Positions 16,686 through 53,146 of a stretch of 64,000 bases of DNA are shown in pieces. Where the stretch lies: positions 1,042 through 65,041 of the forward strand of contig JARRBB010000002.1 of assembly GCA_029981435.1 (NCBI GenBank). The letters run 5' to 3'. Both the position numbers and the translations under genes were made by a program. A model generated the notes under the pieces. It saw only the letters and a program-made list of their open reading frames with translations, was not told where the DNA came from and did not search any database. How positions within the stretch are numbered: position 1 is the first letter of the stretch; the number at the start of each line of letters is the position of its first letter. Origin of the DNA: Thermotogaceae bacterium. GTDB taxonomy: Bacteria; Thermotogota; Thermotogae; B21-G9; HyVt-16.

Positions 16686-16693
16686 GAGTGATA

Positions 16694-23668: not shown

Positions 23669-23743
23669 TGGTGGGTGCGGCAGGGATTGAACCTGCGACC
23701 TCTTCCGCGTCAAGGAAGCGCTCTCCCGCTGAGCTACGCACCC
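23669..23743 (-). tRNA. tRNA-Val (anticodon GAC), 75 nt with encoded CCA
   Basis: The reverse complement is GGGTGCGTAGCTCAGCGGGAGAGCGCTTCCTTGACGCGGAAGAGGTCGCAGGTTCAATCCCTGCCGCACCCACCA. A full cloverleaf can be drawn by hand, with anticodon loop TTGACGC. Confidence 0.9.
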
Positions 23744-24848: not shown

Positions 24849-25161
24849 AGTTTTGCACCACCTTCTCTAAAATTTCTAATATTTCAGAATTCAAAGTATC
24901 TAATCCTTCTGAGAAAACAACTATATCGTCTCTTTCATATACTTTGTTAGCCGGTAAGAATTTTTCTTCTCCTGCCTTCATTTCACTAATATACGCCAGT
25001 CTCTTTCCAATTCTTTTTGTCAGCCAGATTTTACAATCATATTTTTTAGCTATGTAAGCCAGTAATTTTTTTGCTTCAGAATCTGACATCTCTTTCACCT
25101 CTATCAAGGCGTTCCAACCCTTCCAAGATTGTTTTTCTATTCTTTTCATCAAATTTTTCAA
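24817..25161 (-). CDS. small conserved hypothetical protein between hydG and hydE
   Basis: A 90-114-aa ORF overlaps both neighbours. The start may be the internal Met at 25089. From memory, Thermotoga has a small ORF in the same position. Confidence 0.45.
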   Translation of the reverse strand: MKNLMKRIEKQSWKGWNALIEVKEMSDSEAKKLLAYIAKKYDCKIWLTKRIGKRLAYISEMKAGEEKFLPANKVYERDDIVVFSEGLDTLNSEILEILEKVVQNFVDRKTGSKT

Positions 25162-37353: not shown

Positions 37354-37358
37354 ATTTT

Positions 37359-37387
37359 AACCAGGTGGGGTTTGACCTCACCTGGTT
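37359..37387 (+). promoter_or_regulatory. intercistronic stem-loop between the binding-protein and permease genes
   Basis: aaccaggtg-gggtttgacct-cacctggtt forms a 9-bp stem. Confidence 0.55.
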
Positions 37388-37406
37388 AAATAATTTTTAT
37401 GGTGGG

Positions 37407-39121: not shown

Positions 39122-39164
39122 ATTACGTTTCTATACTAACGTTCTAAAGCTTCTAATTACTCGT

Positions 39165-39193
39165 TTGCATACAATTCGGGGGTATGGTATAAT
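39165..39193 (+). promoter_or_regulatory. candidate promoter of the Mbx/Ehr-like operon (TTGCAT-17 nt-TATAAT, extended TG)
   Basis: TTGCAT at 39165-39170 and TGgTATAAT at 39185-39193 with a 17-nt spacer. Confidence 0.55.
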
Positions 39194-39257
39194 TTTGGCG
39201 AATTATTGTTAATTATTTCACCTTATATGTACATAAATATTTTGAAGGGGTGATTTT

Positions 39258-39740
39258 ATGTTTTTTTCGGTGTTTATTGTGACATTTTTCACTTGGCTAA
39301 TTTTGACTAACAGTCTTGAGCCATCTGAAGTTGTAATCGGTTTGATAGTTTCGATAGTTGTTTCCACTACTTTTACCAGATATTATTCGATAAAATTTGA
39401 TTGGAAACTTCCAGTTAGAATTTTGAGGTTCGTTTTCATTTATCTACCAGTTTTTATATGGGAAATGATAAAAGCAAATCTTGATGTTGCAGTAAGAGTA
39501 CTTAATCCCTCTCTACCTCTTAACCCAGGATTTGTAAAAGTAAAAACATCTTTAAAAGGTAAGAATTCTAAGCTTGCACTTGCAAATTCTATCACACTAA
39601 CTCCCGGAACTCTGACTCTTGACGTGAAAGATGAAGAATTATACATTCATTGGGTCGATGTAAAAGCAACTTCTGAAGAGCAGAAACAAAAACACATAAC
39701 AACGAAATTTGAAAAGATTTTAAAGAAAATCTTTGAATAA
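39258..39740 (+). CDS. Na+/H+ antiporter subunit E-like (MrpE/MnhE; MbxA-like)
   Basis: A 160-aa protein with MnhE-like N-terminal transmembrane helices. It is the first gene of the operon. Confidence 0.75.
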   Translation: MFFSVFIVTFFTWLILTNSLEPSEVVIGLIVSIVVSTTFTRYYSIKFDWKLPVRILRFVFIYLPVFIWEMIKANLDVAVRVLNPSLPLNPGFVKVKTSLKGKNSKLALANSITLTPGTLTLDVKDEELYIHWVDVKATSEEQKQKHITTKFEKILKKIFE

Positions 39741-39791
39741 CTCAGATTTGAAGGGAGGTGTAGTTGTTCCTAAGAGGAACAACATTGAGCC

Positions 39792-40049
39792 ATGAGTATT
39801 TTAAGCTACCTGTTTTTTGGCCTAATTGGCTTGGGAGTAATTTTAGCATTTTTACGCATGATACTTGGTCCTACGAGTGCCGATAGATTAGCAGCTTTAG
39901 ATATGCTGAATATTATACTAACAGGAACAATAGCAATCCTTGCTTTGACTTTCAACAATGGTTTGTATCTGGACATTGCATTGGTGTATGGACTATTATC
40001 TTTCGTTGAAACTATCGTGATAGCAAGATATCTGGAGGCGAAAAAATGA
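39792..40049 (+). CDS. MrpF/MnhF-like subunit (MbxB-like)
   Basis: An 85-aa protein with three transmembrane helices, in the MrpF position. Confidence 0.7.
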   Translation: MSILSYLFFGLIGLGVILAFLRMILGPTSADRLAALDMLNIILTGTIAILALTFNNGLYLDIALVYGLLSFVETIVIARYLEAKK

Positions 40050-40384
40050 GTATAATCGGCTATTTACTGATAATCATCGGAGCTTTTTTTTATTTTCTTG
40101 GTGGTCTCGGTATGTTTAGAATGCCAGATGTATACAACAGGCTTCAGGCTGGTACCAAAGCAACAACCCTCGGAAGTTTTTCAACGCTGTTAGGAGTTGG
40201 ACTGGTCAATCCAGCATTTCTCGGAAAGGCTTTACTCATAATAGCTTTTATAGCTTTAACAAATCCCGTTGGAAGTTCGGTACTTGCCAGAGCAGCTTAT
40301 CTTAAAGGTGTAAAACCAACCTCCAAAACCGTTGTTGATGAATATGCCGACGAAGCAACAAAAAAGGCAGGTGAAGAACAATGA
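40046..40384 (+). CDS. MrpG/MnhG-like subunit (MbxC-like)
   Basis: A 112-aa MnhG-like protein (GGLGMFRMPDVYNRLQAGTKATTLG). Its start overlaps the upstream gene as ATGA. Confidence 0.75.
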   Translation: MSIIGYLLIIIGAFFYFLGGLGMFRMPDVYNRLQAGTKATTLGSFSTLLGVGLVNPAFLGKALLIIAFIALTNPVGSSVLARAAYLKGVKPTSKTVVDEYADEATKKAGEEQ

Positions 40385-40620
40385 CGGCAGCAACGATATT
40401 CGTGGGAATACTTATGGTGATTTCAGGTATACTTGCCATTGAATCAAAAAAGCTTCTTGACTCTTTCATATTCCTCTCTCTTTTAAGCCTTTTATCGGTT
40501 TTCTTATTCATTGTCCTGAAAGCTCCAGATGTTGCCATAACTGAGGCTTCGGTTGGTGCTGGTCTTGTGACAGCTGTGTTAATACTCGCCCTTAGAAAAA
40601 TAGGGGGGGATGAAAAGTGA
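40381..40620 (+). CDS. small membrane subunit (MbxD/MbhD-like, MrpB-N/DUF4040-like)
   Basis: A 79-aa protein with two to three transmembrane helices, overlap-coupled to its neighbours. Confidence 0.6.
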   Translation: MTAATIFVGILMVISGILAIESKKLLDSFIFLSLLSLLSVFLFIVLKAPDVAITEASVGAGLVTAVLILALRKIGGDEK

Positions 40621-41345
40621 GAAGATTTCTTTCAGCGTTGATTGCCCTTGGTTTAATAATAATTCTCCTGGAATTTTTGAATCTTATACCTGATTTTGGA
40701 AATGTTGACCTTTCAAAACGTGTTTCAAATAGTTTTATCAACAAATCTGTCGATGGAAATAACGAAACGATAGAATTTAAAAAATCCAAAGATCTGGAAG
40801 ACGGTTCTGCAAATGTTGTCACATCTATTGTTGTTAATTACAGATCTTTTGATACTCTTGGAGAAGTGACGGTACTTTTTACGGCAGCCTTGGGTGTTGG
40901 GTTGATTCTTAAAGGCCTAAGAAGAAAAAGATTTTACCGAGAACCTAATTTTATCCTTAAAACGGCAAATGGAATACTTTTACCCCTGATATTTTTGTTT
41001 GGTGCATATATTTTCATACACGGGCATTTAACACCTGGGGGCGGATTCCCTGGTGGAACTATTATTGCTGCCGGAATATTAGTTTTATACCTTTCAAATG
41101 AAAAGTTCGAACTCTCTCATAGAGCTAAAATCCTTGAAAGTGGCATGGGAACAGTTTACGTACTGTTTGGATTAGTTGGGTTGATATTGAGTGGGATATT
41201 CTTAAGGAATTTTCTCCCAACAGGTGTTATTGGTGAATTGTTCAGTGCGGGTATCGTTCCTCTGATCTATGTGGCTATAGGCTTTAAAGTTGGTGCAGAG
41301 TTATCCAACTTGATTTCCGAGTTTCAAAAGGAGGGACAACAGTGA
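40617..41345 (+). CDS. MrpB/MnhB-domain membrane subunit (MbxF-like)
   Basis: A 242-aa protein with a GTG start and a MnhB-like C-terminal transmembrane domain. Confidence 0.65.
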   Translation: MRRFLSALIALGLIIILLEFLNLIPDFGNVDLSKRVSNSFINKSVDGNNETIEFKKSKDLEDGSANVVTSIVVNYRSFDTLGEVTVLFTAALGVGLILKGLRRKRFYREPNFILKTANGILLPLIFLFGAYIFIHGHLTPGGGFPGGTIIAAGILVLYLSNEKFELSHRAKILESGMGTVYVLFGLVGLILSGIFLRNFLPTGVIGELFSAGIVPLIYVAIGFKVGAELSNLISEFQKEGQQ

Positions 41346-41677
41346 TTTACTATATATCTATAATACTCATTGGTATTGGAGTTTATGGTTTACTTTCCCA
41401 AAAAAATCTTTTTAAGCATTTGATTTCTCTGGCTTTGATCGATACTGCGATTAATCTTTTTATAGTTTCTACAGGATACATTAATGGAAAAGAGGCACCT
41501 ATATATTCTGAATTTACTCCGATAGCTAATTTTGTTGATCCTCTACCTCAGGCTCTTGTTTTGACTGCGATAGTCATAGGTGTTGGAGTTTTAGCACTTG
41601 GAGCTGCGATGCTTATAAAAATCAAAGAAAAATATGGAACATTGAACGTGGAAGAGATAAGGAGGGGAGATAAATGA
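41342..41677 (+). CDS. MrpC/NuoK-like subunit (MbxG-like)
   Basis: A 111-aa protein with three transmembrane helices and a NuoK/MnhC pattern. Confidence 0.7.
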   Translation: MIYYISIILIGIGVYGLLSQKNLFKHLISLALIDTAINLFIVSTGYINGKEAPIYSEFTPIANFVDPLPQALVLTAIVIGVGVLALGAAMLIKIKEKYGTLNVEEIRRGDK

Positions 41678-43026
41678 TCTCTCTTATGATAGCAATTCCG
41701 CTTTTATTCGCATTTGTATCTATAGTTTTTAAAGGGTTGGCAAAATATGCTTTGCCTTTTATAGTTCTGCTGAACATATTGATTCTATTGATAGCATCAA
41801 CTCCCGTTGTTGAAAACATAGGTGGTTGGAAGGCACCTTTTGGTATTTCACTCGTTCTTGATGACGCGAGTTACTACGTGGTTTTGGTTGTTAATCTGAT
41901 TTTTCTTTTACTCTCTTTAATTCCTCAGATAATTGACAAAGGATATGACACGATTATTCTTTTACTTCTGACATCGACGAATGGTTTGGTACTAACTGGT
42001 GATCTTTTCAATTCTTTTGTTTTTATTGAAATCACAGCCGCAGCTGCTTACATTCTTGCGTATCACAGAAACAACCCTTACGGTGCTTTCAAATACCTTA
42101 TCATAGGTGGAATATCGGGAAGTTTTTATCTCCTTGGAACGATCTTTTCATATGTAGGTGCTGGCTCTTTAAACATGGCACATATATCCAATAATTCTTT
42201 TGGACAGTTAACAGCTGCCATCGCGATCTTGTTTATACTTGGGCTTGGAGTAGAGGCAAAATTGTTTCCATTGGCTGGATGGGTCCCAGATGTATACGCT
42301 TCAGGTTCATCATTAACTCCAACAATACTCGGAACAGCTATTACTTTTGCGATAATGTATCTAACAGGAAGAATATTCATAACAGTTTTACACGGTACCT
42401 TCTTGGATGTGCTGTATATCCTTGGACTTTTAACCGTGATAGTTGGTGAAGTTGCCGCTTTGAGACAAGATAAACTTTTAAGAGCTCTTGCTTACTCGTC
42501 TATCGCACAAGCAGGTTTAGTTGTTGCAGCTATTTCTTTAAACAACATTGATAGTCTAACAGGTGCGTATTTTCATTCGATGAACGACTTAACAGCTAAA
42601 TTCATCTTATTCCCAATAGCAACTGTTGTTATAAAAGGATTTGAAAAAGATAGATTAGCTGGGTTTGCATTTTCTGTCGCATCTTTTTCATTGATAGGTT
42701 TTCCTCTTTTTGCTGGATTTAGAAGTAAACTGTTGATAATCTCCAGTGCTTTTTCGGCAGGAAATTATATACTTCCAGCAGTACTGTTTTTTGCAAGTAT
42801 AGTGGAAGCAGCTTACTTGCTGAAATGGAACATAAAACTATGGTTCGAAAAATCCGATACTTCCAACAACATTCCCTGGAATTTAAAAACAATCGTTCTT
42901 GTACTTTCAATTCTGCTGCTAATTATTGGCATATATCCTGATCTGTATCTTGATGCATCAAGAAAAATAGCACAGTCAATTCTCGATACACAGGGTTACA
43001 TTAACTCTGTACTGGGAGGGATATAA
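41674..43026 (+). CDS. MrpD/NuoN-like proton-conducting antiporter subunit (MbxH-like)
   Basis: A 450-aa protein with about 14 transmembrane helices in the NADH-ubiquinone/plastoquinone complex I antiporter-like family. Confidence 0.75.
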   Translation: MISLMIAIPLLFAFVSIVFKGLAKYALPFIVLLNILILLIASTPVVENIGGWKAPFGISLVLDDASYYVVLVVNLIFLLLSLIPQIIDKGYDTIILLLLTSTNGLVLTGDLFNSFVFIEITAAAAYILAYHRNNPYGAFKYLIIGGISGSFYLLGTIFSYVGAGSLNMAHISNNSFGQLTAAIAILFILGLGVEAKLFPLAGWVPDVYASGSSLTPTILGTAITFAIMYLTGRIFITVLHGTFLDVLYILGLLTVIVGEVAALRQDKLLRALAYSSIAQAGLVVAAISLNNIDSLTGAYFHSMNDLTAKFILFPIATVVIKGFEKDRLAGFAFSVASFSLIGFPLFAGFRSKLLIISSAFSAGNYILPAVLFFASIVEAAYLLKWNIKLWFEKSDTSNNIPWNLKTIVLVLSILLLIIGIYPDLYLDASRKIAQSILDTQGYINSVLGGI

Positions 43027-44856
43027 ATGAGCCAACTTTTGTTGATATTATTTATAGGTAGTTTTCTTGTGTATCTTTTAACACGAATGAACTGGATTAT
43101 TGGAGTACTTGCTAACATTGGATTAGCTATCTATTCTTTTTATAGACTTTTCACATTTAAAGTTGGAACTTCGGAAAGTATCTTTTCTTTGATAGTCAAT
43201 CAAAATGGTACTCTTGTCTACTCAGAGCTTTCAAAGTTCTTTGGAATAATTAGTTTGATAGTCGCTATATCAGTATATTTTTTCCTTATAAACTGGTTGG
43301 AAAAACAAAAAAATCGTGCGGTATTTAATTTCTTTTTAGCCCTTATAACTGCTTCAACGCTCGGGGTTTTTTTCTCGGGAGATTTGCTAACATTATATAT
43401 TTTCTGGGAAATAATGCTTCTCTTCTCTGTTCTATTAGTTCAAATGGGGAAAGAAGATTCAAAAAAAGCAGCACTAAATTATCTAACTATAAGCTTAATA
43501 GGAAGCTACATGTATCTATACGCTGTTTTCATGCTTTGGAATAGATATGGAACATTGGTTATAAAGGACATCGTTCAAAAGATTTCAGTTGAAACATCAA
43601 TTTTCAAGTGGGCAGTACTAATTCTCATAGCTGCTGCTGGAATTGCGAAAAGTGGTATCTTTCCTCTTCATACGTGGCTTCGAACAACTCAAGGTTCTTC
43701 TCCTGATGCATTTAGTGCTATCCTGGCTGGTCAGTTAGAAAAACTCGGGGCTTATATGCTTGTACTTACAGTTGCAGTATTTCCAAGTCTGAAAATGTTC
43801 CCAGTCTTGTACGGTGGAATACCTGTATTCAATTATGTGTTAATTGTTTTAGGTATGATATCTATCTTAATAGGAACACTTATGGCAATAAAACAAAATG
43901 ACATGAAAATGCTTATTGCATACTCGACTGTTTCCAACAGTGGCTACATACTTATAGGGTTAGCTACCATGGATAAAATTGGATTCGCTGGCGGATTATT
44001 TCATGCGTTTAATCACGCTATTGCGTCAGTAATGATTTTTCTATCTTTTGCGGCGGTAATTTACAGAACAAAAACATCCAAAATCGATGAGATGGGCGGA
44101 TTGATTTGGAAAATGCCTTTGACCTTTATAACCTACTTGGTTGGAATAATCTCCCTCGCTGGTATCCCGCCTATGAGTGGATTTATTTCCAAATGGATGA
44201 TATTCGTTGTGCTGGTTAAAAAAGGCATGTTTTTGACTGCAGCTGCTGCATTCATAGGTAGTGTTGGATCTTTCTTGTATGTCTTTAGACCGCTCGCAGG
44301 TGTCTTTTTAGGACAATTGAAGAGTAAACATAAAGATGTCAAAGAAGTTCCAATATTCATGTTGATACCGATGCTCGTATTGGTAGTAATAACAGTATTT
44401 TTTGGAGTTATTCCTGGACCTGTTCTTAACATGATAACTGCCGTAGAGAAAGAGCTTAACATTCAACCACTTGAACACACCATGACAGTTATAAAATCCT
44501 CCGTTGGGCAATGGAATACATTAACCGTATTCACAATGTTTGCTGTTGGCTTCATAATTGCTTTCATACTCTATATGGTGTTTCCAAAAGCTAAGAGAAT
44601 ACCTCTTACAAATCAATATACAGCTGGCGAGTTTCTCTATAACTACGATTTGTATCATTATTCAACCAGATTTTATGCCTTTTTTGAACGACTATATGAA
44701 AAACACCCTTCAGTTGAAAAACTTTACGAAATGTTTGGAAAATTTTTCAAAGATATTGGAGAATTTCTGAATAGATGGTTTTATTCCGCAAGTCCAAGCG
44801 CTTATCTGTTGTGGTTTTCAATAGTACTATTAGCAATATTCTGGGTGAGGTGGTAA
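43027..44856 (+). CDS. MrpA/NuoL-like antiporter-type subunit (MbxH'-like)
   Basis: A 609-aa second antiporter-like subunit (WLRTTQGSSPDAFSAI... TFITYLVGIISLAGIPPMSGFISKW). Confidence 0.75.
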   Translation: MSQLLLILFIGSFLVYLLTRMNWIIGVLANIGLAIYSFYRLFTFKVGTSESIFSLIVNQNGTLVYSELSKFFGIISLIVAISVYFFLINWLEKQKNRAVFNFFLALITASTLGVFFSGDLLTLYIFWEIMLLFSVLLVQMGKEDSKKAALNYLTISLIGSYMYLYAVFMLWNRYGTLVIKDIVQKISVETSIFKWAVLILIAAAGIAKSGIFPLHTWLRTTQGSSPDAFSAILAGQLEKLGAYMLVLTVAVFPSLKMFPVLYGGIPVFNYVLIVLGMISILIGTLMAIKQNDMKMLIAYSTVSNSGYILIGLATMDKIGFAGGLFHAFNHAIASVMIFLSFAAVIYRTKTSKIDEMGGLIWKMPLTFITYLVGIISLAGIPPMSGFISKWMIFVVLVKKGMFLTAAAAFIGSVGSFLYVFRPLAGVFLGQLKSKHKDVKEVPIFMLIPMLVLVVITVFFGVIPGPVLNMITAVEKELNIQPLEHTMTVIKSSVGQWNTLTVFTMFAVGFIIAFILYMVFPKAKRIPLTNQYTAGEFLYNYDLYHYSTRFYAFFERLYEKHPSVEKLYEMFGKFFKDIGEFLNRWFYSASPSAYLLWFSIVLLAIFWVRW

Positions 44857-44858
44857 GA

Positions 44859-45740
44859 ATGACCATATTTAAAGTCGCAGCGGTATTGTTAACTGGTTTC
44901 TTTGTTGGTTTGACTCTTGAAGGAATTGCAAGAAAAATAATCGCCAGAGTTCAGAGAAGGTATGGACCGCCTTGGTATCAGAATTTCATAGATGTGTTCA
45001 AAGCACTTTCAAAACATGGGTTTTCACATGGATGGATATTCGATTTTGGAGTCTTGATGGCTCTTGGTGGGGTTATAGCAACTCTTTCTTTCGTGCCGCT
45101 TGGAAATCTTGTTGCATTTCCAGGACTTGATAATGTTTTTGTAGTATTGTATTTGTTTGCTGTTGGAGCACTTGGTATGGCTATGGGAATGGTCGGTTCG
45201 GGCAATCCCAATGCCTCGATAGGTGTTGCAAGAGCACTTACCCAGATGCTTGGATACGAAGTCCCTTACCTTGTAAGCTTAGCGGCAATTATTTTCTATT
45301 ACAAAACTTCTTCTATAAGTAATCTTATGAACCTGCAAGCTGATAGTTGGAACCTTTTTAAGATGCCAATAGGTGCAGCGGTTGCTTTCATATCTTTAAT
45401 GGGAATGCTCGGAAAAAAACCTTTCGACACACCAATTGCTCCGGCTGAAATAGCTTCAGGGCCGATGGTAGAATTGTCCTCAAAGTACATGGGACTTTTA
45501 ATGTTGATGCATACGTTTTCAATATTCGTAGAAATTTCCCTGTTTGTTGACATATTTCTTGGCGGTGGAAGTTATTTAGTATTTCTTTTAAAGTTCACAG
45601 TAGTGTGGATCATAGCAACGTTGATATCGGCTGTACTGCCACGTTTTAGAATAGAACAGGTTGTAAAATTCTACTGGCGTGTTCCTCTTGGCTTAGCATT
45701 TCTACAAGCATTTTTTGTGTTAATAGGATGGGTCTTTTAG
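44859..45740 (+). CDS. NuoH/MbhM-like membrane subunit (MbxM-like)
   Basis: A NuoH-family membrane subunit (KIIARVQRRYGPPWYQNF... ). The ATG at 44859 follows GAGGTGG. The ORF-track start at 44775 lies inside the upstream gene. Confidence 0.75.
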   Translation: MTIFKVAAVLLTGFFVGLTLEGIARKIIARVQRRYGPPWYQNFIDVFKALSKHGFSHGWIFDFGVLMALGGVIATLSFVPLGNLVAFPGLDNVFVVLYLFAVGALGMAMGMVGSGNPNASIGVARALTQMLGYEVPYLVSLAAIIFYYKTSSISNLMNLQADSWNLFKMPIGAAVAFISLMGMLGKKPFDTPIAPAEIASGPMVELSSKYMGLLMLMHTFSIFVEISLFVDIFLGGGSYLVFLLKFTVVWIIATLISAVLPRFRIEQVVKFYWRVPLGLAFLQAFFVLIGWVF

Positions 45741-45752
45741 GAGGTGCCTGTG

Positions 45753-46292
45753 ATGAGCTATGAAAGAACTATTTGGGAGAAGATAGCTGACAATCTTAGA
45801 AGCAGATCTATGTGGATGCTTCATTATTGTACTGGATGTGGTGCTGTTGAACTACCACCTTCCATGACTTCAAGGTTCGATATGGAAAGGCTTGGTATGG
45901 GCCCAATGGCCACTCCAAGACAAGCTGACATATTTTTAATAACCGGATACCTAAGCGTTAAAACTTTACGAAGAGTTATATACACTTACGAACAAATGCC
46001 AGATCCAAAATACGTTGTTGGTTTTGGTTCATGTACAATCAACGGAGGAATTTACTATGATTCTTATGCAACGATAAATAGAGTAGATTATTACATACCA
46101 GTGGATCTATACATTGCGGGTTGTATGCCAAGACCTGAAGCAATTTTTGAAGCATTTACAGAACTTATGAGAATGATAAGAAAAGGTGAGGCAATAGGCT
46201 GGAAAAAATACAAGGAAAACTACGAATGGTATAAGCAAAATCAGCTTAAGTCCCTCGGGGAGGTGTATGTCCATGATGAATTCCATGAATGA
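45753..46292 (+). CDS. NuoB / [NiFe]-hydrogenase small-subunit-like protein (MbxJ-like) retaining four Cys for a [4Fe-4S] cluster
   Basis: Four Cys residues (HYCTGCGAVE...GFGSCTINGG...YIAGCMPRPE) can coordinate a [4Fe-4S] cluster. The ATG at 45753 follows AGGAGG. Confidence 0.8.
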   Translation: MSYERTIWEKIADNLRSRSMWMLHYCTGCGAVELPPSMTSRFDMERLGMGPMATPRQADIFLITGYLSVKTLRRVIYTYEQMPDPKYVVGFGSCTINGGIYYDSYATINRVDYYIPVDLYIAGCMPRPEAIFEAFTELMRMIRKGEAIGWKKYKENYEWYKQNQLKSLGEVYVHDEFHE

Positions 46293-46803
46293 CTTGTTGG
46301 AAGAACTTAAAAAACTGTTTGGAAACTTCGAAGTACAGGAAATAGATGAAAGAGAAGTAAAAATAGACGTTGAATCAGATAAAGTGGTTGGAATATTAAC
46401 AACCTTAAAAAGCAAAGGATACTCCCATTTATCACTCTTGACATGTGTTGACTGGATTAATGAGAACAAATTCGAACTTATTTATATCCTTTATTCTTGG
46501 CAAAATGGTTGCAAATTCATTGTTGCTACATGGATAGAAAGAAAGAACCCGAAATTTGTAACCGTTATGAATTTATGGCCAGTTGCAAGATTTTACGAAA
46601 GGGAAATACACGAATTTTTTGGTGTTGAATTTGAAGGTAACGATGATATGAAACCACTTATACTGGAACTTTGGGACGACATACCACCTTTGAGGAAAGA
46701 TTTTGACCCGCTTGAATATTCTAAAAAGAAATTCCCTGGAAGACAGTATGATAAAGATGTGATTCAAGAAGCTTTGATCTTCAGAGGTGATAAAAATGGG
46801 TGA
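46267..46803 (+). CDS. NuoC-like 30-kDa subunit (MbxK-like)
   Basis: LSLLTCVDW...WPVARFYEREIHEFFGVEFEG is characteristic of NuoC. Confidence 0.75.
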   Translation: MSMMNSMNDLLEELKKLFGNFEVQEIDEREVKIDVESDKVVGILTTLKSKGYSHLSLLTCVDWINENKFELIYILYSWQNGCKFIVATWIERKNPKFVTVMNLWPVARFYEREIHEFFGVEFEGNDDMKPLILELWDDIPPLRKDFDPLEYSKKKFPGRQYDKDVIQEALIFRGDKNG

Positions 46804-47899
46804 AGTGAAACTTTTCTTTGGTCCAAATCATCCAGGGATGCATGGTAATTTTTCGGTTCATCTGTATGTTGAAGGAGATACAGTTGTAAAGGCAAAACCA
46901 CTTCCTGGTTTTCTTCATAGAGGTTTTGAAAAACTTATGGAAAGAAGAACATGGTTTCAAAACGTTGCACTTATACCTCGTATATGCGTCCCAGAACCTG
47001 ATATAAATGAAGTTTGCTATTCAATGGCAATTGAAAAAATAGCAAAAATTGATGTTCCAGAAAGAGCCCAGTGGATAAGGATGATCGTACTTGAACTTGC
47101 CAGAATAGCCAACCACCTTTGGAGTTTTGCAGGAATAGGAGGCCCCTTAGGACTGTATACTGGCCCATTTTGGGGTGTCGCTGATAGAGATAGAATACTG
47201 GACATCTTTGAACAGCTCACCGGTGCGCGTATTTATCATATGTACATAATACCTGGCGGAGTTAGAAAAGAAATGCCATCAAAGATACAGGATATGATAT
47301 CTCAAACTCTTGATTATATTGAATCAAGGCTACCCGATTACGAAAACTTGATTCTTAGAAACAGGATAGTTCAAACTCGTTTAAAAGGTATTGCACTTCT
47401 TGATAGAGAATCCGCACTTACAATGGGAGTAACCGGCATAGGTTTGAGAGCTACAGGTGTTCCATATGACCTAAGAAAGGTTGACCCATATCTTTACTAT
47501 AACTATGTTGATTTTGAGGTGCCAACAGCCACAGAAGGAGATGCTTATTCAAGGATTAAACTGAAATACTTGGAGATAAAGCAAAGCATAAGGATAATTA
47601 GACAAGTTCTGGAGAAGATGCCAGAAGGTCCAATCAACACGAAATTCAGTGATGGGAATGCTCTGAGATATAGAGTACCCAAAGGTTATGCATATGTCCA
47701 TGTCGAGGCTACAAGAGGTGAATACGGTTACTTCGTTGTTTCGAATGGTGAAGATAAACCATATAGGGTTACTGTAAGAGGCGCATCGTATCCTCAAGGA
47801 CTGTATGGTATAGAAAAGTATTTACCAGGCACAAGAATAGAAGATGTACCGATTTGGCTTGATACTATGGGTGTTTGTGCTCCTGAAATAGACAGATAA
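46796..47899 (+). CDS. NuoD / [NiFe]-hydrogenase large-subunit-like protein lacking both CxxC Ni-Fe ligand pairs (MbxL/Ehr-type)
   Basis: The N-terminal motif is RICVPE instead of RxCGxC, and the C-terminal motif is DTMGVCAPEIDR instead of DPCxxCxxH/R. Each motif therefore has one Cys plus Glu (CxxE). The ATG at 46796 follows GAGGTGA. Confidence 0.75.
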   Translation: MGEVKLFFGPNHPGMHGNFSVHLYVEGDTVVKAKPLPGFLHRGFEKLMERRTWFQNVALIPRICVPEPDINEVCYSMAIEKIAKIDVPERAQWIRMIVLELARIANHLWSFAGIGGPLGLYTGPFWGVADRDRILDIFEQLTGARIYHMYIIPGGVRKEMPSKIQDMISQTLDYIESRLPDYENLILRNRIVQTRLKGIALLDRESALTMGVTGIGLRATGVPYDLRKVDPYLYYNYVDFEVPTATEGDAYSRIKLKYLEIKQSIRIIRQVLEKMPEGPINTKFSDGNALRYRVPKGYAYVHVEATRGEYGYFVVSNGEDKPYRVTVRGASYPQGLYGIEKYLPGTRIEDVPIWLDTMGVCAPEIDR

Positions 47900-47914
47900 C
47901 GGAGGTGCTGTGAA

Positions 47915-49729
47915 ATGGAAAAAAGTTTTTTTGCCCCGGTTAAAGCATGGAAATTTCTATTTGAAAAACCAGTTACTATAAAAGTACCGAAAGAAAAAAG
48001 AAAGGCGAGTGAAAGGTATAGAGGTTTCCACATAAACGATTGGGACAAGTGTATAGGCTGCGGAACCTGTTCAAAAGTTTGTCCTACCGATGCAATACAG
48101 ATGGTAGAAGTTCCCGTTCTGGAAAAAAAGTTTGGTGAAAAACCTCAAAGACCCTCGATAGATTATGGACGTTGTTCATTCTGTGCAATGTGTGTTGATA
48201 TATGTACAACTGGTTCTTTGCAGATGACACGTGAATATGTTCATCTATCATCTCAACCAGAAGCCTTCATTTTCGTACCAACTGAAAAAGGAATAAAAAA
48301 TGTTGAGAACGTTGAAATAGGCTGGATAAAAGACGAAGATTCTGAATTGCTTGAACTTGAACGTGTCGAAATGGAAATGATAGAAGCAGAGGAAAGAGTG
48401 AAGTCGTTTATAGAATACGTAAAAGGTTACAGCAAAGAACAGGCAATACATGAAGCTGCAAGGTGCGTTGAGTGTGGAATATGTACTGATAGATGTCCTG
48501 AACATATGGATATCCCTGAATACATAAAATCCATCTGGCTTGATGATCTTGAAGAAGGCTTAAGATGGCTTTACAAAACAAACCCATTGTCATCTGTTTG
48601 TGGAAGAGTTTGTACCCATAGATGTGAAGAAGTATGTGCTATATCCAACAGAGGAGAGGCAGTGGCAATAAGATGGTTGAAAAGATACATAGTTGATAAT
48701 GTACCCTCTGAAGATTATATGAAGATTTTGAATTTTAATCCCAAGCCGAAAGAAGAAAGAATAGCTATCGTCGGTTCTGGACCAGCGGGACTTTCTGCGG
48801 CATATTTTCTGGCAACTATGGGATACAAAGTTGATATTTTCGAATCCTTGGCAAAACCTGGTGGTGTTATGAGATACGGTATCCCAAGGTACAGACTTCC
48901 TGATGAAGCACTCGATAAAGATATTGCTTTAATACAGGCACTTGGGGTTAGAATATTCACAAACACAACAATTGGAAAAGATATAAAGTTGGAAGAATTA
49001 AAAGAAAAATATGATGCAATTTTTGTCTCCACTGGATTCACACTTGGTCGTTCAACTGGTGTTCCTGGCACTGACCATCCTAAGGTTGTACAAGCACTTC
49101 CGTTGCTAAAAGATATAAGAGATTACTTGAGAGGCGAAGCTCCAAAGCCTGAAATACCAGAAACTCTTGTGGTAATAGGTGGAGGAAATGTTGCAATGGA
49201 TGTGGCGAGAAGTGTTGCAAGACTTCAGAAGATGGAATATGGAAAGGTCAATGTAAAACTTGCATGTCTTGAAAGAAATTTTGAAGAAATGCCAGCGGAT
49301 ATGGAAGAAATTATTGAAGGAAAAGAAGAAGGTGTAGAATTTTATCCCGGTTGGGGTCCTATAAGAATCATGATAGAAAAAGATGAAATAAAAGGTGTCG
49401 AATTTCAAAAGTGCCTGGAAGTTTTCGATTCAGATGGTAAGTTCAACCCAAAATTCGATGCTAATAACAAGATGATACTCCAAGGCGACATGGTTGTTGA
49501 AGCAATTGGACAGGCACCTGATTACTCTTATCTTCCAGAGGAAATAAAGTCTAAATTGCAATTTATAAGAGGAAGAATCCTGACAAACGAATACAGGCAA
49601 ACAGATATTCCATGGTTGTTTGCGGGAGGTGATATTGTTAACGGCCCAGATATCATACATGGCGTTGCAGATGGCTACTGGGCTGCTCGAGGTATAGATG
49701 ATTATTTATCAAGTAAAGAAAGGAGTTGA
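47915..49729 (+). CDS. fusion protein: 2x[4Fe-4S] ferredoxin (NuoI/MbhN-like) plus GltD/NfnB/SudA-like NAD(P)H-dependent FAD oxidoreductase
   Basis: Residues 1-130 carry CIGCGTCSKVCP and CSFCAMCVDICT. These are followed by RCVECGICTDRCPE and CGRVCTHRCEEVC, an FAD-binding IAIVGSGPAGLSAAYFLA and an NAD(P)H-binding VVIGGGNVAMDVARS. Confidence 0.8.
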   Translation: MEKSFFAPVKAWKFLFEKPVTIKVPKEKRKASERYRGFHINDWDKCIGCGTCSKVCPTDAIQMVEVPVLEKKFGEKPQRPSIDYGRCSFCAMCVDICTTGSLQMTREYVHLSSQPEAFIFVPTEKGIKNVENVEIGWIKDEDSELLELERVEMEMIEAEERVKSFIEYVKGYSKEQAIHEAARCVECGICTDRCPEHMDIPEYIKSIWLDDLEEGLRWLYKTNPLSSVCGRVCTHRCEEVCAISNRGEAVAIRWLKRYIVDNVPSEDYMKILNFNPKPKEERIAIVGSGPAGLSAAYFLATMGYKVDIFESLAKPGGVMRYGIPRYRLPDEALDKDIALIQALGVRIFTNTTIGKDIKLEELKEKYDAIFVSTGFTLGRSTGVPGTDHPKVVQALPLLKDIRDYLRGEAPKPEIPETLVVIGGGNVAMDVARSVARLQKMEYGKVNVKLACLERNFEEMPADMEEIIEGKEEGVEFYPGWGPIRIMIEKDEIKGVEFQKCLEVFDSDGKFNPKFDANNKMILQGDMVVEAIGQAPDYSYLPEEIKSKLQFIRGRILTNEYRQTDIPWLFAGGDIVNGPDIIHGVADGYWAARGIDDYLSSKERS

Positions 49730-49733
49730 TATC

Positions 49734-50231
49734 ATGGCTTTAAGTGATATTCTCGATATTGCTGAAAAATTTGAGATAGAAGGCTATAACTTCTATAAAT
49801 CAAAGAGAGATGAAATAAGAAGTTCCACAGCAAAAGAAACGTTTGATTTTCTTGCTAATATGGAAAAAGAACATACCGAATACATAAGAAGAGTAAAAGA
49901 AAAAATTGAAAATGTTGAAGTAGTTGAAACCAATGACTCTGAAACTACAGAAGAGTTTTTTGAAAAAAGGTTAAAATCTCAAAAGCTCGATGAATCTTTT
50001 TCGAAAGAAAACGATCTCGCTGACCTATCCATTTTAAGAATGGCGCTTTTGATTGAAAAAGATTTCGTAAATTATTACGCCAAAGCATATGAAACTACCG
50101 TTGACGAAAAGGCAAAAAAAATCTTCAAAATGTTGAAAAACTGGGAAGAACAGCATGTAAAATTGGTAGAAGAACTCATAAAAGAAATTTATGACAGAAA
50201 CAGACTTGACTTAGGTTTTTATCCTTTCTAA
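49734..50231 (+). CDS. ferritin-like/rubrerythrin-like diiron-fold protein (no rubredoxin domain)
   Basis: E-x-x-H-like helices (NMEKEHTEYI; NWEEQHVKLVEE) are present. The ATG at 49734 follows AGGAG. It is the last gene of the operon, just before a terminator. Confidence 0.55.
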   Translation: MALSDILDIAEKFEIEGYNFYKSKRDEIRSSTAKETFDFLANMEKEHTEYIRRVKEKIENVEVVETNDSETTEEFFEKRLKSQKLDESFSKENDLADLSILRMALLIEKDFVNYYAKAYETTVDEKAKKIFKMLKNWEEQHVKLVEELIKEIYDRNRLDLGFYPF

Positions 50232-50253
50232 TTTAAACCTGATTGAATATTTT

Positions 50254-50286
50254 GGCGGGCATCACGAGATGCCCGCTTTATTTTTT
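50254..50286 (+). terminator. rho-independent terminator
   Basis: The stem ggcgggcatc/gatgcccgc (loop acga) is followed by TTTATTTTTT. Confidence 0.8.
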
Positions 50287-50427
50287 ATGAATTATCTTGA
50301 GGGGTTGATTCCATATCTGTACAAGCTTGAAAAATAGATTGCCACTTTCTGTTTACTTTTTTGAAAATTTGCTTTATAATTTCTTTAATAAAGTTCGAAC
50401 TCTTTCAAATTTCAAGGAGGACTGTTT

Positions 50428-52200: not shown

Positions 52201-52214
52201 AAAGAAGCCTGATT

Positions 52215-53135: not shown

Positions 53136-53146
53136 GAGGTGAAAAT

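What the first reader, a model, noticed from the sequence alone, without database searches (positions are those of the whole stretch)
39165..50286. Thirteen-gene Mbx/Ehr-type Mrp–complex-I-like operon whose catalytic subunit has lost the NiFe cysteine ligands
One promoter (39165-39193) and one terminator (50254-50286) bracket tightly overlap-coupled genes in the order MrpE, F and G, a MbhD-like gene, MrpB-, C-, D- and A-like genes, then NuoH-, NuoB-, NuoC- and NuoD-like genes, the NuoI–GltD fusion, and finally a ferritin-like gene. Placing NuoH (M) before the NuoB, NuoC and NuoD homologues (J, K, L), together with two antiporter-like subunits, is the archaeal Mbx/MBS order rather than the Mbh hydrogenase order. 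The NuoD-like subunit has RICVPE and MGVCAPEIDR in place of the two CxxC pairs, so each site is CxxE. A canonical [NiFe] centre is therefore impossible. The NuoB-like subunit keeps four Cys for its [4Fe-4S] cluster. This points to an ion-translocating oxidoreductase that is neither a hydrogenase nor complex I, with unknown substrate. I cannot check how the CxxE pattern compares with archaeal MbxL or MbsL.
Basis: partly seen in the sequence, partly recalled or inferred. Interest (0 to 1): 0.75.

Follow-up and report, generated by a model that had tools for sequence, protein, structure and literature searches.

The report
Bacterial MBX/MBS-type ion-pumping sulfur reductase operon
This is a real 13-gene operon (plus a ferritin-like 14th gene) for the membrane complex called MBX/MBS, a known evolutionary intermediate between hydrogenases and respiratory complex I. 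The same operon, with the same oddities, has already been described in Thermotoga and other bacteria, so it is an ordinary member of a known family.

Summary
Fourteen co-directional, mostly overlapping ORFs (39258-50231, + strand) lie between a good promoter-like site (39164-39193) and a strong terminator hairpin (50254-50277).

Every large subunit matches its counterpart in the Pyrococcus furiosus MBS structure (6U8Y) far better than MBH or complex I. The 'CxxE' sites are the MbsL signature: C67 and C364 correspond to MbsL C85 and C385, the two vestigial [NiFe] ligands. The NuoB-like subunit has the shortened MbsJ CxxC motif, which in MBS leaves one Fe of the proximal [4Fe-4S] open as the polysulfide-reducing site.

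The same 13 genes occur in the same order in Thermotoga maritima, where mbxA is S0-induced, and in Thermosipho, Fervidobacterium and Izemoplasma; a Spirochaetales MAG has them in two swapped blocks. A 2015 paper already noted the NuoI-GltD fusion, the trailing rubrerythrin and the vestigial cysteines.

One question remains open: what the fused NfnB/GltD-like flavoprotein and the ferritin-like protein do. I favour an ion-translocating sulfane-sulfur reductase with a built-in NAD(P)H port. No biochemistry exists for the bacterial form.

The parts
39164..39193 (+). sigma-70-type promoter-like site, TTTGCA-18 nt-TGnTATAAT
   Evidence: 10/12 match with an extended -10 TG. It lies in the 136-nt gap after the upstream ABC permease gene. 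This is a consensus match only; region-wide counts equal the shuffles.
39258..39740 (+). mbxA (MrpE/MnhE-like membrane subunit)
   Evidence: Pfam PF01899 MNHE, 4.7e-43. Syntenic in 10 related loci.
39792..40049 (+). mbxB (MrpF-like)
   Evidence: PF04066, 7.4e-18.
40046..40384 (+). mbxC (MrpG-like)
   Evidence: PF03334, 9.5e-27. Overlaps its neighbours by 4 nt.
40381..40620 (+). mbxD (MbhD-like)
   Evidence: PF13244 MbhD, 1.2e-18.
40617..41345 (+). mbxE (MbhE + MnhB/MrpB-like domains)
   Evidence: PF20501 MbhE, 1.1e-8, and PF04039 MnhB, 1.1e-21.
41342..41677 (+). mbxG (NuoK/MrpC-like)
   Evidence: PF00420, 9.5e-27.
41674..43026 (+). mbxH, antiporter-like subunit (MrpD-like, 450 aa)
   Evidence: PF00361. 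Best PDB hit is 6U8Y_H, 5e-61, over the full length.
43027..44856 (+). mbxH', second antiporter-like subunit with C-terminal extension (609 aa)
   Evidence: PF00361. Best PDB hit is 6U8Y_X (618 aa), 4.6e-72, residues 4-604 against 7-613. NCBIfam NF006419 scores 800.6 bits against a cut-off of 617.
44859..45740 (+). mbxM (NuoH-like membrane anchor of the peripheral arm). The mechanical ORF starts at 44775; the likely start is the ATG at 44859.
   Evidence: PF00146, 2.1e-60. 6U8Y_M scores 2.8e-55 against 6e-21 for 6CFW_M. The sequence GGTGAGGTGG lies just upstream of 44859. Public gene calls give 293 aa.
45744..46292 (+). mbxJ (NuoB-like, proximal [4Fe-4S] subunit) with Cys29, 32, 97 and 127
   Evidence: 6U8Y_J, 1.9e-70, gap-free alignment. 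The motif YCTGC--GAVELPP has the same length as MbsJ FCTGC--GGIEMPP. It is 3 residues shorter than HycG DCGGCNGCEIEIF and differs from NuoB GLSC--CYVEM.
46267..46803 (+). mbxK (NuoC-like)
   Evidence: PF00329, 6.4e-29.
46787..47899 (+). mbxL (NuoD / [NiFe]-large-subunit-like; likely start ATG 46796). The vestigial NiFe sites are RIC67VPE70 (nt 46979-46996) and GVC364APE367IDR (nt 47870-47896).
   Evidence: 6U8Y_L, 7.1e-114. Aligned against HycE, NuoCD and MbsL. The C[DE]C[DE] pattern marks the closest 50%-identity cluster representatives.
47915..49729 (+). mbxN fused to an NfnB/GltD-like flavoprotein. Residues 3-114 (nt 47921-48256) are MbsN-like with 2x[4Fe-4S]. Residues ~154-601 (nt 48374-49717) carry two more 4-Cys motifs, an FAD GSGPAGL motif and an NAD(P)H GGGNVA motif.
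   Evidence: PDB hits: 6U8Y_N 7e-30 for residues 3-114; 4YLF_B (T. maritima NfnB) 4.7e-79 for residues 154-600. The AlphaFold model has pLDDT 84.9 and pTM 0.80. Foldseek to NfnI-L 5JCA_L gives TM(target) 0.88. NCBIfam equivalog NF010590 scores 1157 bits against a cut-off of 946. There are 16 Fe-S-region Cys.
49698..50231 (+). ferritin/rubrerythrin-like four-helix-bundle gene with two ExxH motifs (E56xxH59, E150xxH153) and no rubredoxin domain. An alternative start lies at 49734.
   Evidence: PF02915, 1.1e-9. Best PDB hit is 1VJX, the T. maritima TM1526 ferritin-like diiron-carboxylate protein, 2.6e-7. The gene is present after N in Thermosipho and Fervidobacterium loci, absent in T. maritima, and fused to the C-terminus of N in ~750-aa homologues such as P0093.
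50254..50287 (+). intrinsic terminator: 10-bp stem with 7 G-C pairs, then a T-run
   Evidence: Fold energy is -19.4 kcal/mol, z = -5.16, and 0 of 200 shuffles fold as well.

Best explanation
Identity. The operon encodes a bacterial member of the MBX/MBS family and is orthologous to Thermotoga maritima mbx.

Architecture. It combines an Mrp-derived membrane arm (A, B, C, D, E, G, H, H') with a complex-I-like peripheral module (M, J, K, L, N).

Proposed mechanism, by analogy with the solved P. furiosus MBS.
1. Electrons pass down a chain of [4Fe-4S] clusters to the proximal cluster in subunit J.
2. The shortened CxxC motif leaves that cluster ligated by only three cysteines.
3. The open iron reduces sulfane sulfur (polysulfide) inside the hydrophobic L/J/M chamber.
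4. The reaction is coupled, through the conserved loops, to H+ pumping and Na+/H+ exchange in the membrane arm.
5. The two cysteines left in L (C67, C364) are evolutionary vestiges of the [NiFe] site, not the catalytic centre.

The bacterial difference. Subunit N is fused to an NfnB/GltD-like FAD and 2x[4Fe-4S] flavoprotein. I read this as a built-in pyridine-nucleotide port. It would let NAD(P)H, possibly NADH, feed electrons into the same cluster chain, or drain them from it, alongside ferredoxin. That is the role such modules play in glutamate synthase and dihydropyrimidine dehydrogenase. The ferritin-like 14th protein is an accessory partner of that flavoprotein, and its role is unknown (perhaps peroxide or oxygen protection).

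What is shown: identity, architecture, motif conservation and synteny. What is inferred: the substrate, the electron donor, the direction of flow and the ion specificity.
For: - One-to-one best matches to MBS chains L, J, M, H, H' and N, far above MBH and, for J, M, H, H' and N, far above complex I (L: 7e-114 against 1.9e-74).
- The MbsL-type C-x-x-E/D pairs are present. This pattern characterises the nearest cluster representatives among 10,151 homologues.
- The MbsJ-specific short CxxC motif is conserved without gaps here and in 7 bacterial loci. In MBS this motif creates the catalytic 3-Cys cluster, and the L cysteines are dispensable there (PMC7684303). One bacterial locus (L011) has lost both L cysteines yet keeps the J motif.
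- The same 13 genes occur in the same order in T. maritima MSB8 and RQ2 and in 9 other loci from Thermotogota, Mycoplasmatota (Izemoplasma) and other MAGs.
- T. maritima mbxA is induced 4.4-fold by S0 (PMC9431562). A bacterial 13-gene MBS is S0-induced in Zhurongbacter 3DAC (PMC10356935).
- The fused domain has the NfnB/GltD fold, intact FAD and NAD(P)H glycine motifs and 16 cluster cysteines. No NfnA-like partner is found in the window.
- GltD-like modules serve as plain NAD(P)H/Fe-S adaptors in GltS (PMC8097209) and, from my own knowledge of the enzyme, in DPD; both are among the closest folds.
Against: - No enzyme assay exists for any bacterial MBX.
- NAD(P)H to polysulfide offers little driving force: roughly 0-100 mV by textbook potentials, against about 210 mV for ferredoxin. 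An NAD(P)H-only enzyme could hardly drive two pump modules.
- Earlier authors assigned the opposite role, ferredoxin:NAD(P)+ oxidoreductase (PMC4758237; bioRxiv 10.1101/322537).
- The window's L subunit keeps the complex-I-type HPGMHG loop. His19 is equivalent to Nqo4 H38, which P. furiosus MbsL lacks, so the chamber is not identical to the MBS chamber.
- In Mesotoga, mbx expression was low during growth on thiosulfate.
- The flavoprotein's cluster ligands differ from those of every characterised relative, so its redox properties cannot be transferred from them.
Confidence: 0.6

Rival explanations
1. Ion-translocating ferredoxin:NAD(P)+ oxidoreductase, an Rnf-like role. Reduced ferredoxin donates electrons and the fused flavoprotein reduces NAD(P)+. 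Nothing is reduced in the L/J/M chamber.
For: - This is the model stated for Thermotoga-type mbx in PMC4758237 and used for Mesotoga.
- The fused NfnB-like domain has intact FAD and NAD(P)H motifs.
- By textbook potentials, Fd to NAD+ gives enough energy (about 170-220 mV) for ion pumping.
- The invariant Glu453 of the conserved 'LE' (where NfnB and GltD have 'YRR') after the nucleotide-binding glycine motif hints at NAD rather than NADP. This is an inference from the general Rossmann-fold rule.
Against: - The model dates from before MBS was shown to be a sulfane reductase (PMC7684303).
- Electrons going from Fd through the N clusters to FAD would bypass the J cluster and the three-loop coupling site. 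Every structurally characterised member of this superfamily uses that site to drive ion translocation.
- The J motif and the L/M chamber subunits are among the most conserved parts of the operon, at 59-90% (J) and 48-81% (L) identity across phyla.
- T. maritima already has a purified Na+-Rnf doing this job (PMC7414866).
- mbxA responds to S0.
Confidence: 0.2
2. Flavin-based electron bifurcation or confurcation on a respiratory complex. The NfnB-like FAD splits or merges electron pairs between NAD(P)H, ferredoxin and the high-potential acceptor in the chamber. For example, NADH plus reduced Fd would jointly reduce sulfur, mirroring the confurcating [FeFe] hydrogenase of these organisms.
For: - The closest solved relatives of the fused domain are the bifurcating subunits NfnB (4YLF_B, 4.7e-79) and NfnI-L (TM 0.88).
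- Fermenting Thermotogota must dispose of both NADH and reduced Fd. [FeFe]-hydrogenase maturases HydE and HydG lie in the same window.
Against: - No NfnA-like [2Fe-2S]/FAD partner is present in the operon or the window.
- The Glu of the Glu(Cys)3 cluster typical of NfnB and GltD is replaced. All 116 full-length homologues have IRWLKR[YF], where NfnB has IGRLERF and GltD has IGNIERY.
- Both cluster motifs are two residues shorter, with a conserved His (CTH).
- The same fold is a non-bifurcating NAD(P)H adaptor in GltS and DPD (fold matches; GltS role PMC8097209; DPD role from my own knowledge).
Confidence: 0.1
3. A minimal NADH:menaquinone oxidoreductase: a complex-I analogue with an alternative NADH-input module.
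For: - The L subunit keeps HPGMHG, with a His at the position of Nqo4 H38, as in complex I.
- By textbook potentials, NADH to menaquinone would supply ample energy for two pump modules.
- T. maritima EtfABCX is reported to use menaquinone (PMC10734219).
Against: - The Tyr87 equivalent is Val68.
- J has the MBS CxxC motif, not the tandem Cys-Cys of NuoB.
- L and J are much closer to MBS than to any complex I (7e-114 against 2e-74; 2e-70 against 1e-30 or weaker).
- The menaquinone seen in EtfABCX came from the E. coli expression host.
Confidence: 0.06
4. A cryptic hydrogenase: the membrane and Fe-S subunits assemble with a separate, canonical [NiFe] large subunit encoded elsewhere.
For: None found. 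Only the window, not the whole genome, could be inspected.
Against: - L is encoded in the operon, is translationally coupled, and is conserved at 48-81% identity across phyla in the same position.
- It lacks the second Cys of both pairs and the C-terminal extension that HycE has for maturation.
- No hyp genes or NiFe subunits are in the window. The hydrogenase maturases present, HydE and HydG, are for [FeFe] enzymes.
Confidence: 0.01

Closest known systems
Pyrococcus furiosus MBS (formerly MBX), membrane-bound sulfane sulfur reductase, cryo-EM structure 6U8Y
   Same: - The subunit set is the same: A, B, C, D, E, G, H, H', M, J, K, L, N.
- There are two antiporter-like subunits.
- L keeps the same two vestigial NiFe cysteines, each followed by x-x-acidic.
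- J has the same shortened CxxC motif and all four Cys, aligned without gaps.
- Best PDB hit for every subunit tested.
   Different: - N is fused to a ~450-residue NfnB/GltD-like flavoprotein and lacks the C-terminal ~85 residues of MbsN.
- A ferritin-like gene follows the operon.
- L retains the complex-I-like HPGMHG loop where MbsL has HMATE.
- The host is bacterial.
- Activity is untested.
Thermotoga maritima MBX operon (mbxA = THEMA_RS08165; the 13 genes next to malE)
   Same: - The 13 genes are in identical order, including the 615-aa N-NfnB-like fusion (69% identical).
- Both belong to the same phylum-level lineage.
- The operon is described in the literature and is S0-induced (PMC9431562; PMC4758237).
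   Different: - T. maritima has no ferritin-like gene after N.
- The window's lineage is an uncultured Thermotogaceae MAG, with 100% protein identity to a deposited MAG protein.
Group 4 membrane-bound [NiFe] hydrogenases (P. furiosus MBH 6CFW; E. coli Hyc/FHL 7Z0S)
   Same: - The ancestry of L, J, K, M, N and the Mrp-like membrane subunits is shared.
- The first Cys of each NiFe pair is retained.
   Different: - The second Cys of each pair is Glu.
- L has no C-terminal maturation extension.
- The J motif is 3 residues shorter.
- There are two antiporter-like subunits instead of one.
- M precedes J-K-L.
Respiratory complex I (Nuo/Nqo) and cyanobacterial/plastid NDH-1
   Same: - It has homologues of NuoB, C, D, H, I and K and of the antiporter-like subunits.
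- It has the HPxxHG loop with the H38-equivalent His.
- The peripheral arm carries a nucleotide-oxidising flavoprotein. This is functionally reminiscent of the N-module but unrelated to NuoEFG.
   Different: - NuoE, F, G, A and J are absent.
- It has MrpE/F/G-type subunits.
- The Tyr87 equivalent is missing.
- NuoB's tandem cysteines are missing.
- The two NiFe-derived cysteines are still present.
NfnAB / NfnI (NADH-dependent ferredoxin:NADP+ oxidoreductase) large subunit, and the GltD family
   Same: - The fold matches, with TM 0.88 to 5JCA_L.
- It has FAD and NAD(P)H motifs and two N-terminal Fe-S cluster sites.
   Different: - There is no NfnA partner.
- The cluster motifs are CxxCxxCxxxCP and CGRxCTHxCxxxC, each two residues shorter.
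- Lys stands in place of the conserved Glu.
- 'LE' stands where NfnB and GltD have 'YRR' after the NAD(P)H glycine motif.
- It is covalently joined to a NuoI/MbsN-type di-cluster domain.

Membership tests
[quoted passage not shown] | Thirteen subunits A, B, C, D, E, G, H, H', M, J, K, L, N encoded in one operon, with M ahead of J-K-L | tested here: met
   The order is identical in T. maritima and in 9 other loci. The P. furiosus gene order itself is from my own knowledge; its subunit list is in PMC7684303 and PMC10356935.
[quoted passage not shown] | Two antiporter-like subunits (H, and H' with a C-terminal extension carrying the lateral helix) | tested here: met
   The 450-aa protein matches 6U8Y_H at 5e-61. 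The 609-aa protein matches 6U8Y_X at 4.6e-72 over residues 4-604 against 7-613. The helix HL itself was not modelled.
[quoted passage not shown] | The L subunit retains only two of the four [NiFe] cysteines (MbsL C85 and C385) | tested here: met
   C67 and C364 are kept; E70 and E367 replace the partner cysteines. Alignment with HycE (CCCC), MbsL (CECD) and NuoCD (none) is. Literature.
[quoted passage not shown] | [quoted passage not shown] | tested here: met
   The sequence length and all four Cys match MbsJ without gaps. The actual ligation state cannot be tested with these tools.
[quoted passage not shown] | The L subunit lacks the Nqo4 H38 and Y87 equivalents and the MbhL E21 equivalent | tested here: inconclusive
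   The Y87 equivalent is V68 and no Glu stands at the E21-type position. The H38 equivalent (H19 in HPGMHG) is present, unlike P. furiosus MbsL. This position varies among C[DE]C[DE]-type sequences.
[quoted passage not shown] | N is a free-standing 2x[4Fe-4S] subunit that takes electrons from ferredoxin | tested here: not met
   N is fused to an NfnB/GltD-like flavoprotein. This defines the bacterial 'mbx-like' variant already noted in PMC4758237.
[quoted passage not shown] | Ferredoxin-dependent polysulfide/DMTS reduction coupled to ion translocation; induction by S0 | not testable with these tools
   The only evidence is literature on orthologues: T. maritima mbxA rises 4.4-fold with S0, and Zhurongbacter MBS is S0-induced.
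Group 4 [NiFe] hydrogenase (Mbh/Ech/Hyc) | Two CxxC pairs (RxCGxC and DPCxxC) ligating Ni-Fe | tested here: not met
   The window has RICVPE and VCAPE where HycE has RVCGIC and DPCYSC.
Group 4 [NiFe] hydrogenase (Mbh/Ech/Hyc) | Maturation apparatus: a C-terminal extension on the large subunit, plus hyp genes or an endopeptidase | tested here: not met
   L ends at ...EIDR, with no extension like the one in HycE. No hyp or hycI-like genes are in the 64-kb window. The rest of the genome was not seen.
Respiratory complex I (NDH-1) | NuoEFG NADH-dehydrogenase module, NuoA and NuoJ, and three antiporter-like subunits | tested here: not met
   None of these domains is among the 14 ORFs. There are two antiporter-like subunits plus MrpE/F/G-type subunits.
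Respiratory complex I (NDH-1) | Tandem cysteines in NuoB, and the His38/Tyr87 quinone-binding pair in NuoD | tested here: not met
   J has CTGC, not the adjacent Cys pair. The Tyr87 equivalent is Val68, although the His is present.
NfnAB-type bifurcating transhydrogenase (for the C-terminal domain of N) | NfnB-like fold with FAD, an NAD(P)H site and two [4Fe-4S] clusters | tested here: met
   4YLF_B 4.7e-79. Foldseek TM(target) is 0.86-0.88. GSGPAGL and GGGNVA motifs and 8 Cys are present.
NfnAB-type bifurcating transhydrogenase (for the C-terminal domain of N) | An NfnA partner ([2Fe-2S] + FAD) providing the high-potential branch | tested here: not met
   No such gene is in the operon or elsewhere in the window. 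It is also absent from the T. maritima operon.
NfnAB-type bifurcating transhydrogenase (for the C-terminal domain of N) | A Glu(Cys)3-ligated [4Fe-4S] cluster (motif ...Cx3Cx13Gx2ER) | tested here: not met
   The window has IRWLK256RY where NfnB has IGRLERF and GltD has IGNIERY. The PQE/PQD stretch is also replaced by TH. All 116 full-length homologues show the same change. The motif is from PMC6405883 and the Glu(Cys)3 ligation from PMC8097209. Which Glu is the ligand is my inference; both candidates are absent.

The most novel reading that the evidence does not exclude
The fused NfnB-like flavoprotein may make the bacterial MBX a different enzyme from archaeal MBS. It would be a respiratory complex in which a complex-I ancestor independently acquired a pyridine-nucleotide module unrelated to NuoEFG. 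It would use that module to merge or split electrons between NADH, ferredoxin and the chamber acceptor (flavin-based con/bifurcation on an ion pump). The ferritin-like protein would be a dedicated partner. The clade-specific cluster ligands (Lys for Glu, a conserved His, shortened motifs) would then be adaptations to this role.
Probability: 0.1. Interest if true: 0.75.

Novelty: already known. Interest (0 to 1): 0.25.

Why it matters
MBX/MBS complexes are the accepted intermediate between energy-converting hydrogenases and complex I, so a correct identification is useful for annotation. Public records label these genes 'NADH dehydrogenase subunit D' and 'glutamate synthase small chain', which hides a likely sulfur-respiration system in an uncultured Thermotogaceae lineage.

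The locus adds no new kind of system. The residual value lies in the uncharacterised bacterial variant. It is widespread across Thermotogota, Izemoplasma/Mycoplasmatota, Spirochaetales-type and other MAGs. It is the only member of the family with a covalently attached NAD(P)H-binding flavoprotein. It has never been purified. Knowing its donor and acceptor would settle how these fermenters couple S0 reduction to ion gradients.

Tried and rejected
Rejected readings
- Hydrogenase: both CxxC pairs are broken, there is no maturation extension, and no hyp genes are in the window.
- Complex I: there are no NuoEFG/A/J genes, no tandem Cys and no Tyr87 equivalent.
- A sequencing or assembly artefact behind the CxxE sites: the same residues occur in independent genomes and metagenomes from several phyla and in the solved MbsL.

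Searches that led nowhere
- An Rfam scan of the whole window found only one tRNA, and no riboswitch or leader in the 5' region.
- Schut et al. 2013 (FEMS Microbiol Rev), the usual source for Mbx in Thermotogales, is not held.
- Searching by T. maritima locus tags (TM1204-TM1217) gave only a mal-operon table.
- Searching MbxN/NfnB/GltD/SudA combinations found only PMC4758237 as relevant.

Limits of the analyses
- The promoter scan is not enriched over shuffles, so the promoter is only a plausible consensus match.
- A first large MAFFT run timed out and was repeated with faster settings.
- The AlphaFold model of the fusion confirmed the fold, but no coordinates are returned. The distance between the N clusters and the NfnB-like clusters could therefore not be measured.
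- The genome scan did not return the window's own genome. The organism is known only as a Thermotogaceae MAG, from a 100%-identical protein.

Full report
**1. What is in the sequence**

Between 39258 and 50231 the + strand carries 14 ORFs with no intervening genes on either strand. Pfam assigns them as follows:

| # | Assignment | Size |
|---|---|---|
| 1 | MNHE/MrpE | |
| 2 | MrpF | |
| 3 | MrpG | |
| 4 | MbhD | |
| 5 | MbhE+MnhB | |
| 6 | NuoK/MrpC-like | |
| 7, 8 | two Proton_antipo_M subunits | 450 and 609 aa |
| 9 | NuoH-like | |
| 10 | NuoB-like | |
| 11 | NuoC-like | |
| 12 | NuoD-like | |
| 13 | two ferredoxin-type [4Fe-4S] motifs plus Fer4_20 and Pyr_redox_2 (GltD/NfnB-like) | 604 aa |
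| 14 | rubrerythrin/ferritin-like | 177 aa |

- **Spacing.** Five consecutive junctions overlap by 4 nt and one abuts exactly. The rest are small gaps or overlaps, and only the first junction has 51 nt.
- **True starts.** Shine-Dalgarno sequences and independent public gene calls place them at 44859 (M, 293 aa), 45753 (J, 179 aa) and 46796 (L, 367 aa).
- **Promoter.** It sits in the 136-nt gap after an upstream sugar ABC transporter. Promoter-like hits overall are no more frequent than in shuffles, so it remains a plausible site only.
- **Terminator.** It is convincing: a 10-bp stem with 7 G-C pairs, -19.4 kcal/mol, z = -5.2.
- **Leader.** Rfam finds no RNA element there.

**2. The catalytic-subunit observation**

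Aligned with E. coli HycE (a true group-4 [NiFe] large subunit), E. coli NuoCD and P. furiosus MbsL, the window's L subunit reads as follows:

| Site | Window L | HycE | MbsL |
|---|---|---|---|
| N-terminal pair | R-I-C67-V-P-E70 | R-V-C-G-I-C | R-I-C-V-P-E |
| C-terminal pair | V-C364-A-P-E367-I-D-R (end of protein) | P-C-Y-S-C-T-D-R + extension | N-C-P-P-D-I-D-R |

The first Cys of each pair is kept and the second is an acidic residue, exactly as in MbsL. The literature identifies the two retained residues as MbsL C85 and C385. It also shows that the C85A/C385A enzyme is fully active (PMC7684303).

A search of 1.84 billion cluster representatives found 10,151 homologues. Among the best 150, the C[D/E]C[D/E] pattern is shared by the closest representatives. 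Nine are CCCC hydrogenases and most of the rest are NuoD-like. The pattern is a family signature, not a local oddity or a sequencing error.

**3. Subunit-by-subunit identity**

Each large subunit has the corresponding chain of the MBS structure 6U8Y as its best solved relative:

| Subunit | 6U8Y match | Comparison |
|---|---|---|
| L | 7e-114 | complex I about 2e-74, MBH 3e-43 |
| J | 2e-70, gap-free | |
| M | 3e-55 | MBH 6e-21 |
| H | 5e-61 | |
| H' | 5e-72, full length | |
| N, residues 3-114 | 7e-30 | |

The most informative detail is in J. Its cluster motif YCTGC--GAVELPP has the same length as MbsJ FCTGC--GGIEMPP. It is three residues shorter than HycG, and it differs from the tandem cysteines of NuoB. 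In MBS this shortening removes one Cys from the proximal [4Fe-4S]. The resulting open iron is the proposed site of polysulfide reduction (PMC7684303, PMC8165549).

One difference from P. furiosus MbsL stands out. The window's L has HPGMHG, with a His at the position of complex-I Nqo4 H38, while the Tyr87 equivalent is Val68. This loop varies among Mbx-type sequences.

**4. Distribution and prior description**

- The fused N protein is 100% identical to a deposited protein of a Thermotogaceae MAG. It is 69-77% identical to proteins of Thermosipho, Fervidobacterium and T. maritima.
- Homologues at 43-63% identity occur in Petrotoga, Mesotoga, Izemoplasma and Spirochaetales-type MAGs, with further named hits at 53-58% in Tepiditoga, Haliovirga, Anaerolineales and Clostridia MAGs.
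- NCBIfam has a dedicated equivalog model for it, NF010590, which scores 1157 bits against a cut-off of 946.
- tblastn with all 14 proteins shows the same 13 genes in the same order in 9 fetched loci from several phyla. A tenth, from a Spirochaetales MAG, has the two halves swapped.
- T. maritima MSB8 and Thermotoga sp. RQ2 have the identical 13-gene operon.

The literature already covers the finding:

[quoted passage not shown] It adds that the operon often ends with rubrerythrin, and that the NuoD homologues keep vestigial NiFe cysteines.
- PMC9431562 describes the 13-subunit T. maritima MBX as an MBS homologue whose mbxA is induced 4.4-fold by S0.
- PMC10356935 reports an S0-induced bacterial MBS and an MbsL phylogeny that includes Thermotogota.

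**5. The two bacterial additions**

*The fused flavoprotein (residues ~154-601 of N)*

- It is closest to the large subunit of Nfn: T. maritima NfnB 4YLF_B at 5e-79, and P. furiosus NfnI-L at TM 0.88 on the AlphaFold model (pLDDT 84.9, pTM 0.80).
- It keeps the FAD motif (GSGPAGL), the NAD(P)H motif (GGGNVA) and eight cysteines. Together with the eight in the MbsN-like part, this allows four [4Fe-4S] clusters ahead of the J cluster.
- It differs from NfnB and from E. coli GltD in ways conserved in nearly all of the 116 full-length homologues (the Lys-for-Glu change in every one):
  - both cluster motifs are two residues shorter (RCxxCxxCxxxCP; CGRxCTH[K/R]CxxxC);
  - the family's conserved Glu (NfnB IGRLERF, GltD IGNIERY) is Lys (IRWLKRY);
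  - a His appears in CTH.
- One cluster of NfnB/GltD has Glu(Cys)3 ligation (PMC8097209; motif in PMC6405883). The homologous ligand is therefore missing here.
- After the NAD(P)H glycine motif the clade has 'LE' where NfnB and GltD have 'YRR'. By the general Rossmann-fold rule this suggests a preference for NADH; this is inference only.
- No NfnA-like partner is encoded in the operon or the window.

*The ferritin-like protein*

- It has two ExxH motifs and resembles T. maritima TM1526, a diiron-carboxylate protein.
- It follows N in the window's lineage, Thermosipho and Fervidobacterium, and is absent in Thermotoga.
- It is fused in frame to the C-terminus of N in ~750-aa homologues such as P0093, on the L005 contig.
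- That fusion argues that it works with the flavoprotein, as an accessory part rather than a core part.

**6. Mechanism**

The best-supported reading is an MBS-type enzyme. Electrons reach the three-Cys proximal cluster in J and reduce sulfane sulfur in the L/J/M chamber, and this drives the Mrp-derived membrane arm.

I read the fused flavoprotein as a pyridine-nucleotide port on the distal end of the cluster chain. The same fold acts as a plain NAD(P)H/Fe-S adaptor in glutamate synthase and dihydropyrimidine dehydrogenase.

The weak point is energetics. By textbook potentials, NAD(P)H to polysulfide yields little energy, whereas ferredoxin yields about 41 kJ per two electrons (PMC8165549). 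Ferredoxin is therefore probably still a donor, and the port may balance the NAD(P)H pool.

| Rival | Probability | Main argument for or against |
|---|---|---|
| Older ferredoxin:NAD(P)+ oxidoreductase model | 0.2 | Would bypass the conserved coupling site; duplicates Rnf |
| Flavin-based con/bifurcation | 0.1 | No NfnA, altered cluster ligands |
| NADH:menaquinone reduction | 0.06 | His present, Tyr absent, MBS-type J |
| Hidden hydrogenase | 0.01 | See section 2 and the membership tests |

None of these can be decided without enzyme assays.

**7. Verdict**

The system is already known and structurally characterised in its archaeal form, and the bacterial variant with all the features listed has been described. 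Interest is low (0.25). What remains open is the untested function of the fused flavoprotein and the ferritin-like partner.

Noticed in passing
window 23802-24848 (-) and 25076-26488 (-): These are the [FeFe]-hydrogenase H-cluster maturases HydE (TIGR03956, 386 bits) and HydG (TIGR03955, 532 bits). The organism therefore matures [FeFe] hydrogenases. No [NiFe] maturation genes were seen in the window.
   Followed up: partly
window 23669-23743 (-): A single tRNA-Val (GAC) lies just downstream of hydE. It is the only Rfam/ARAGORN hit in the 64 kb.
   Followed up: yes
window 50428-57547 (+): Immediately downstream of the operon lies a bacterial alpha-2-macroglobulin cluster. It has a DUF2207 membrane protein (50428-52200), a DUF1175/MagC-like NlpC/P60 protein (52215-53135) and a 1466-aa alpha-2-macroglobulin (53147-57547). 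It resembles a mag-type operon.
   Followed up: no
L011 (MAG contig CAYUAG010000017.1), L subunit 8866-9966: This mbx-type locus has lost both vestigial NiFe cysteines (RINVVE and VVAPEIDR) while keeping the MbsJ-type CTGC motif and the N-flavoprotein fusion. This fits the reported dispensability of MbsL C85 and C385.
   Followed up: partly
window 46829-46846 (L residues 15-20, HPGMHG): The Thermotogota and Izemoplasma L subunits keep the complex-I-type HPxxHG loop, with the His equivalent to Nqo4 H38. P. furiosus MbsL has HMATE, and other bacterial loci have HPGIEG or HAGISG. The functional meaning is unknown.
   Followed up: partly
window 48464-48688 and 49178-49276 (N residues 184-258 and 422-454): The flavoprotein shows clade-wide signatures: cluster motifs two residues shorter than in NfnB/GltD, a conserved His235, Lys256 in place of the family's conserved Glu, and 'LE' instead of 'YRR' after the NAD(P)H motif. 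The Lys-for-Glu change is in all 116 full-length homologues and the other signatures in nearly all. I found no paper that mentions these features.
   Followed up: partly
L010 (Spirochaetales MAG) 6850-17939, and L005 10001-12260: In L010 the operon is rearranged: M-J-K-L-N comes first and A-H' follows. In L005, and in ~750-aa proteins such as P0093, the ferritin-like domain is fused in frame to the end of N.
   Followed up: partly
window 36085-39121 (+); L018 1-963: A sugar-type ABC transporter (SBP_bac_1 plus two permeases) lies directly upstream of the operon. In T. maritima an SBP_bac_1 gene (the mal region) also abuts mbxA, but on the opposite strand. This may be a conserved neighbourhood or coincidence.
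   Followed up: no
window 7951-8688 (+): A TauE/SafE-family sulfite/organosulfonate exporter-like gene lies in the same window. It was not examined for any link to sulfur metabolism.
   Followed up: no
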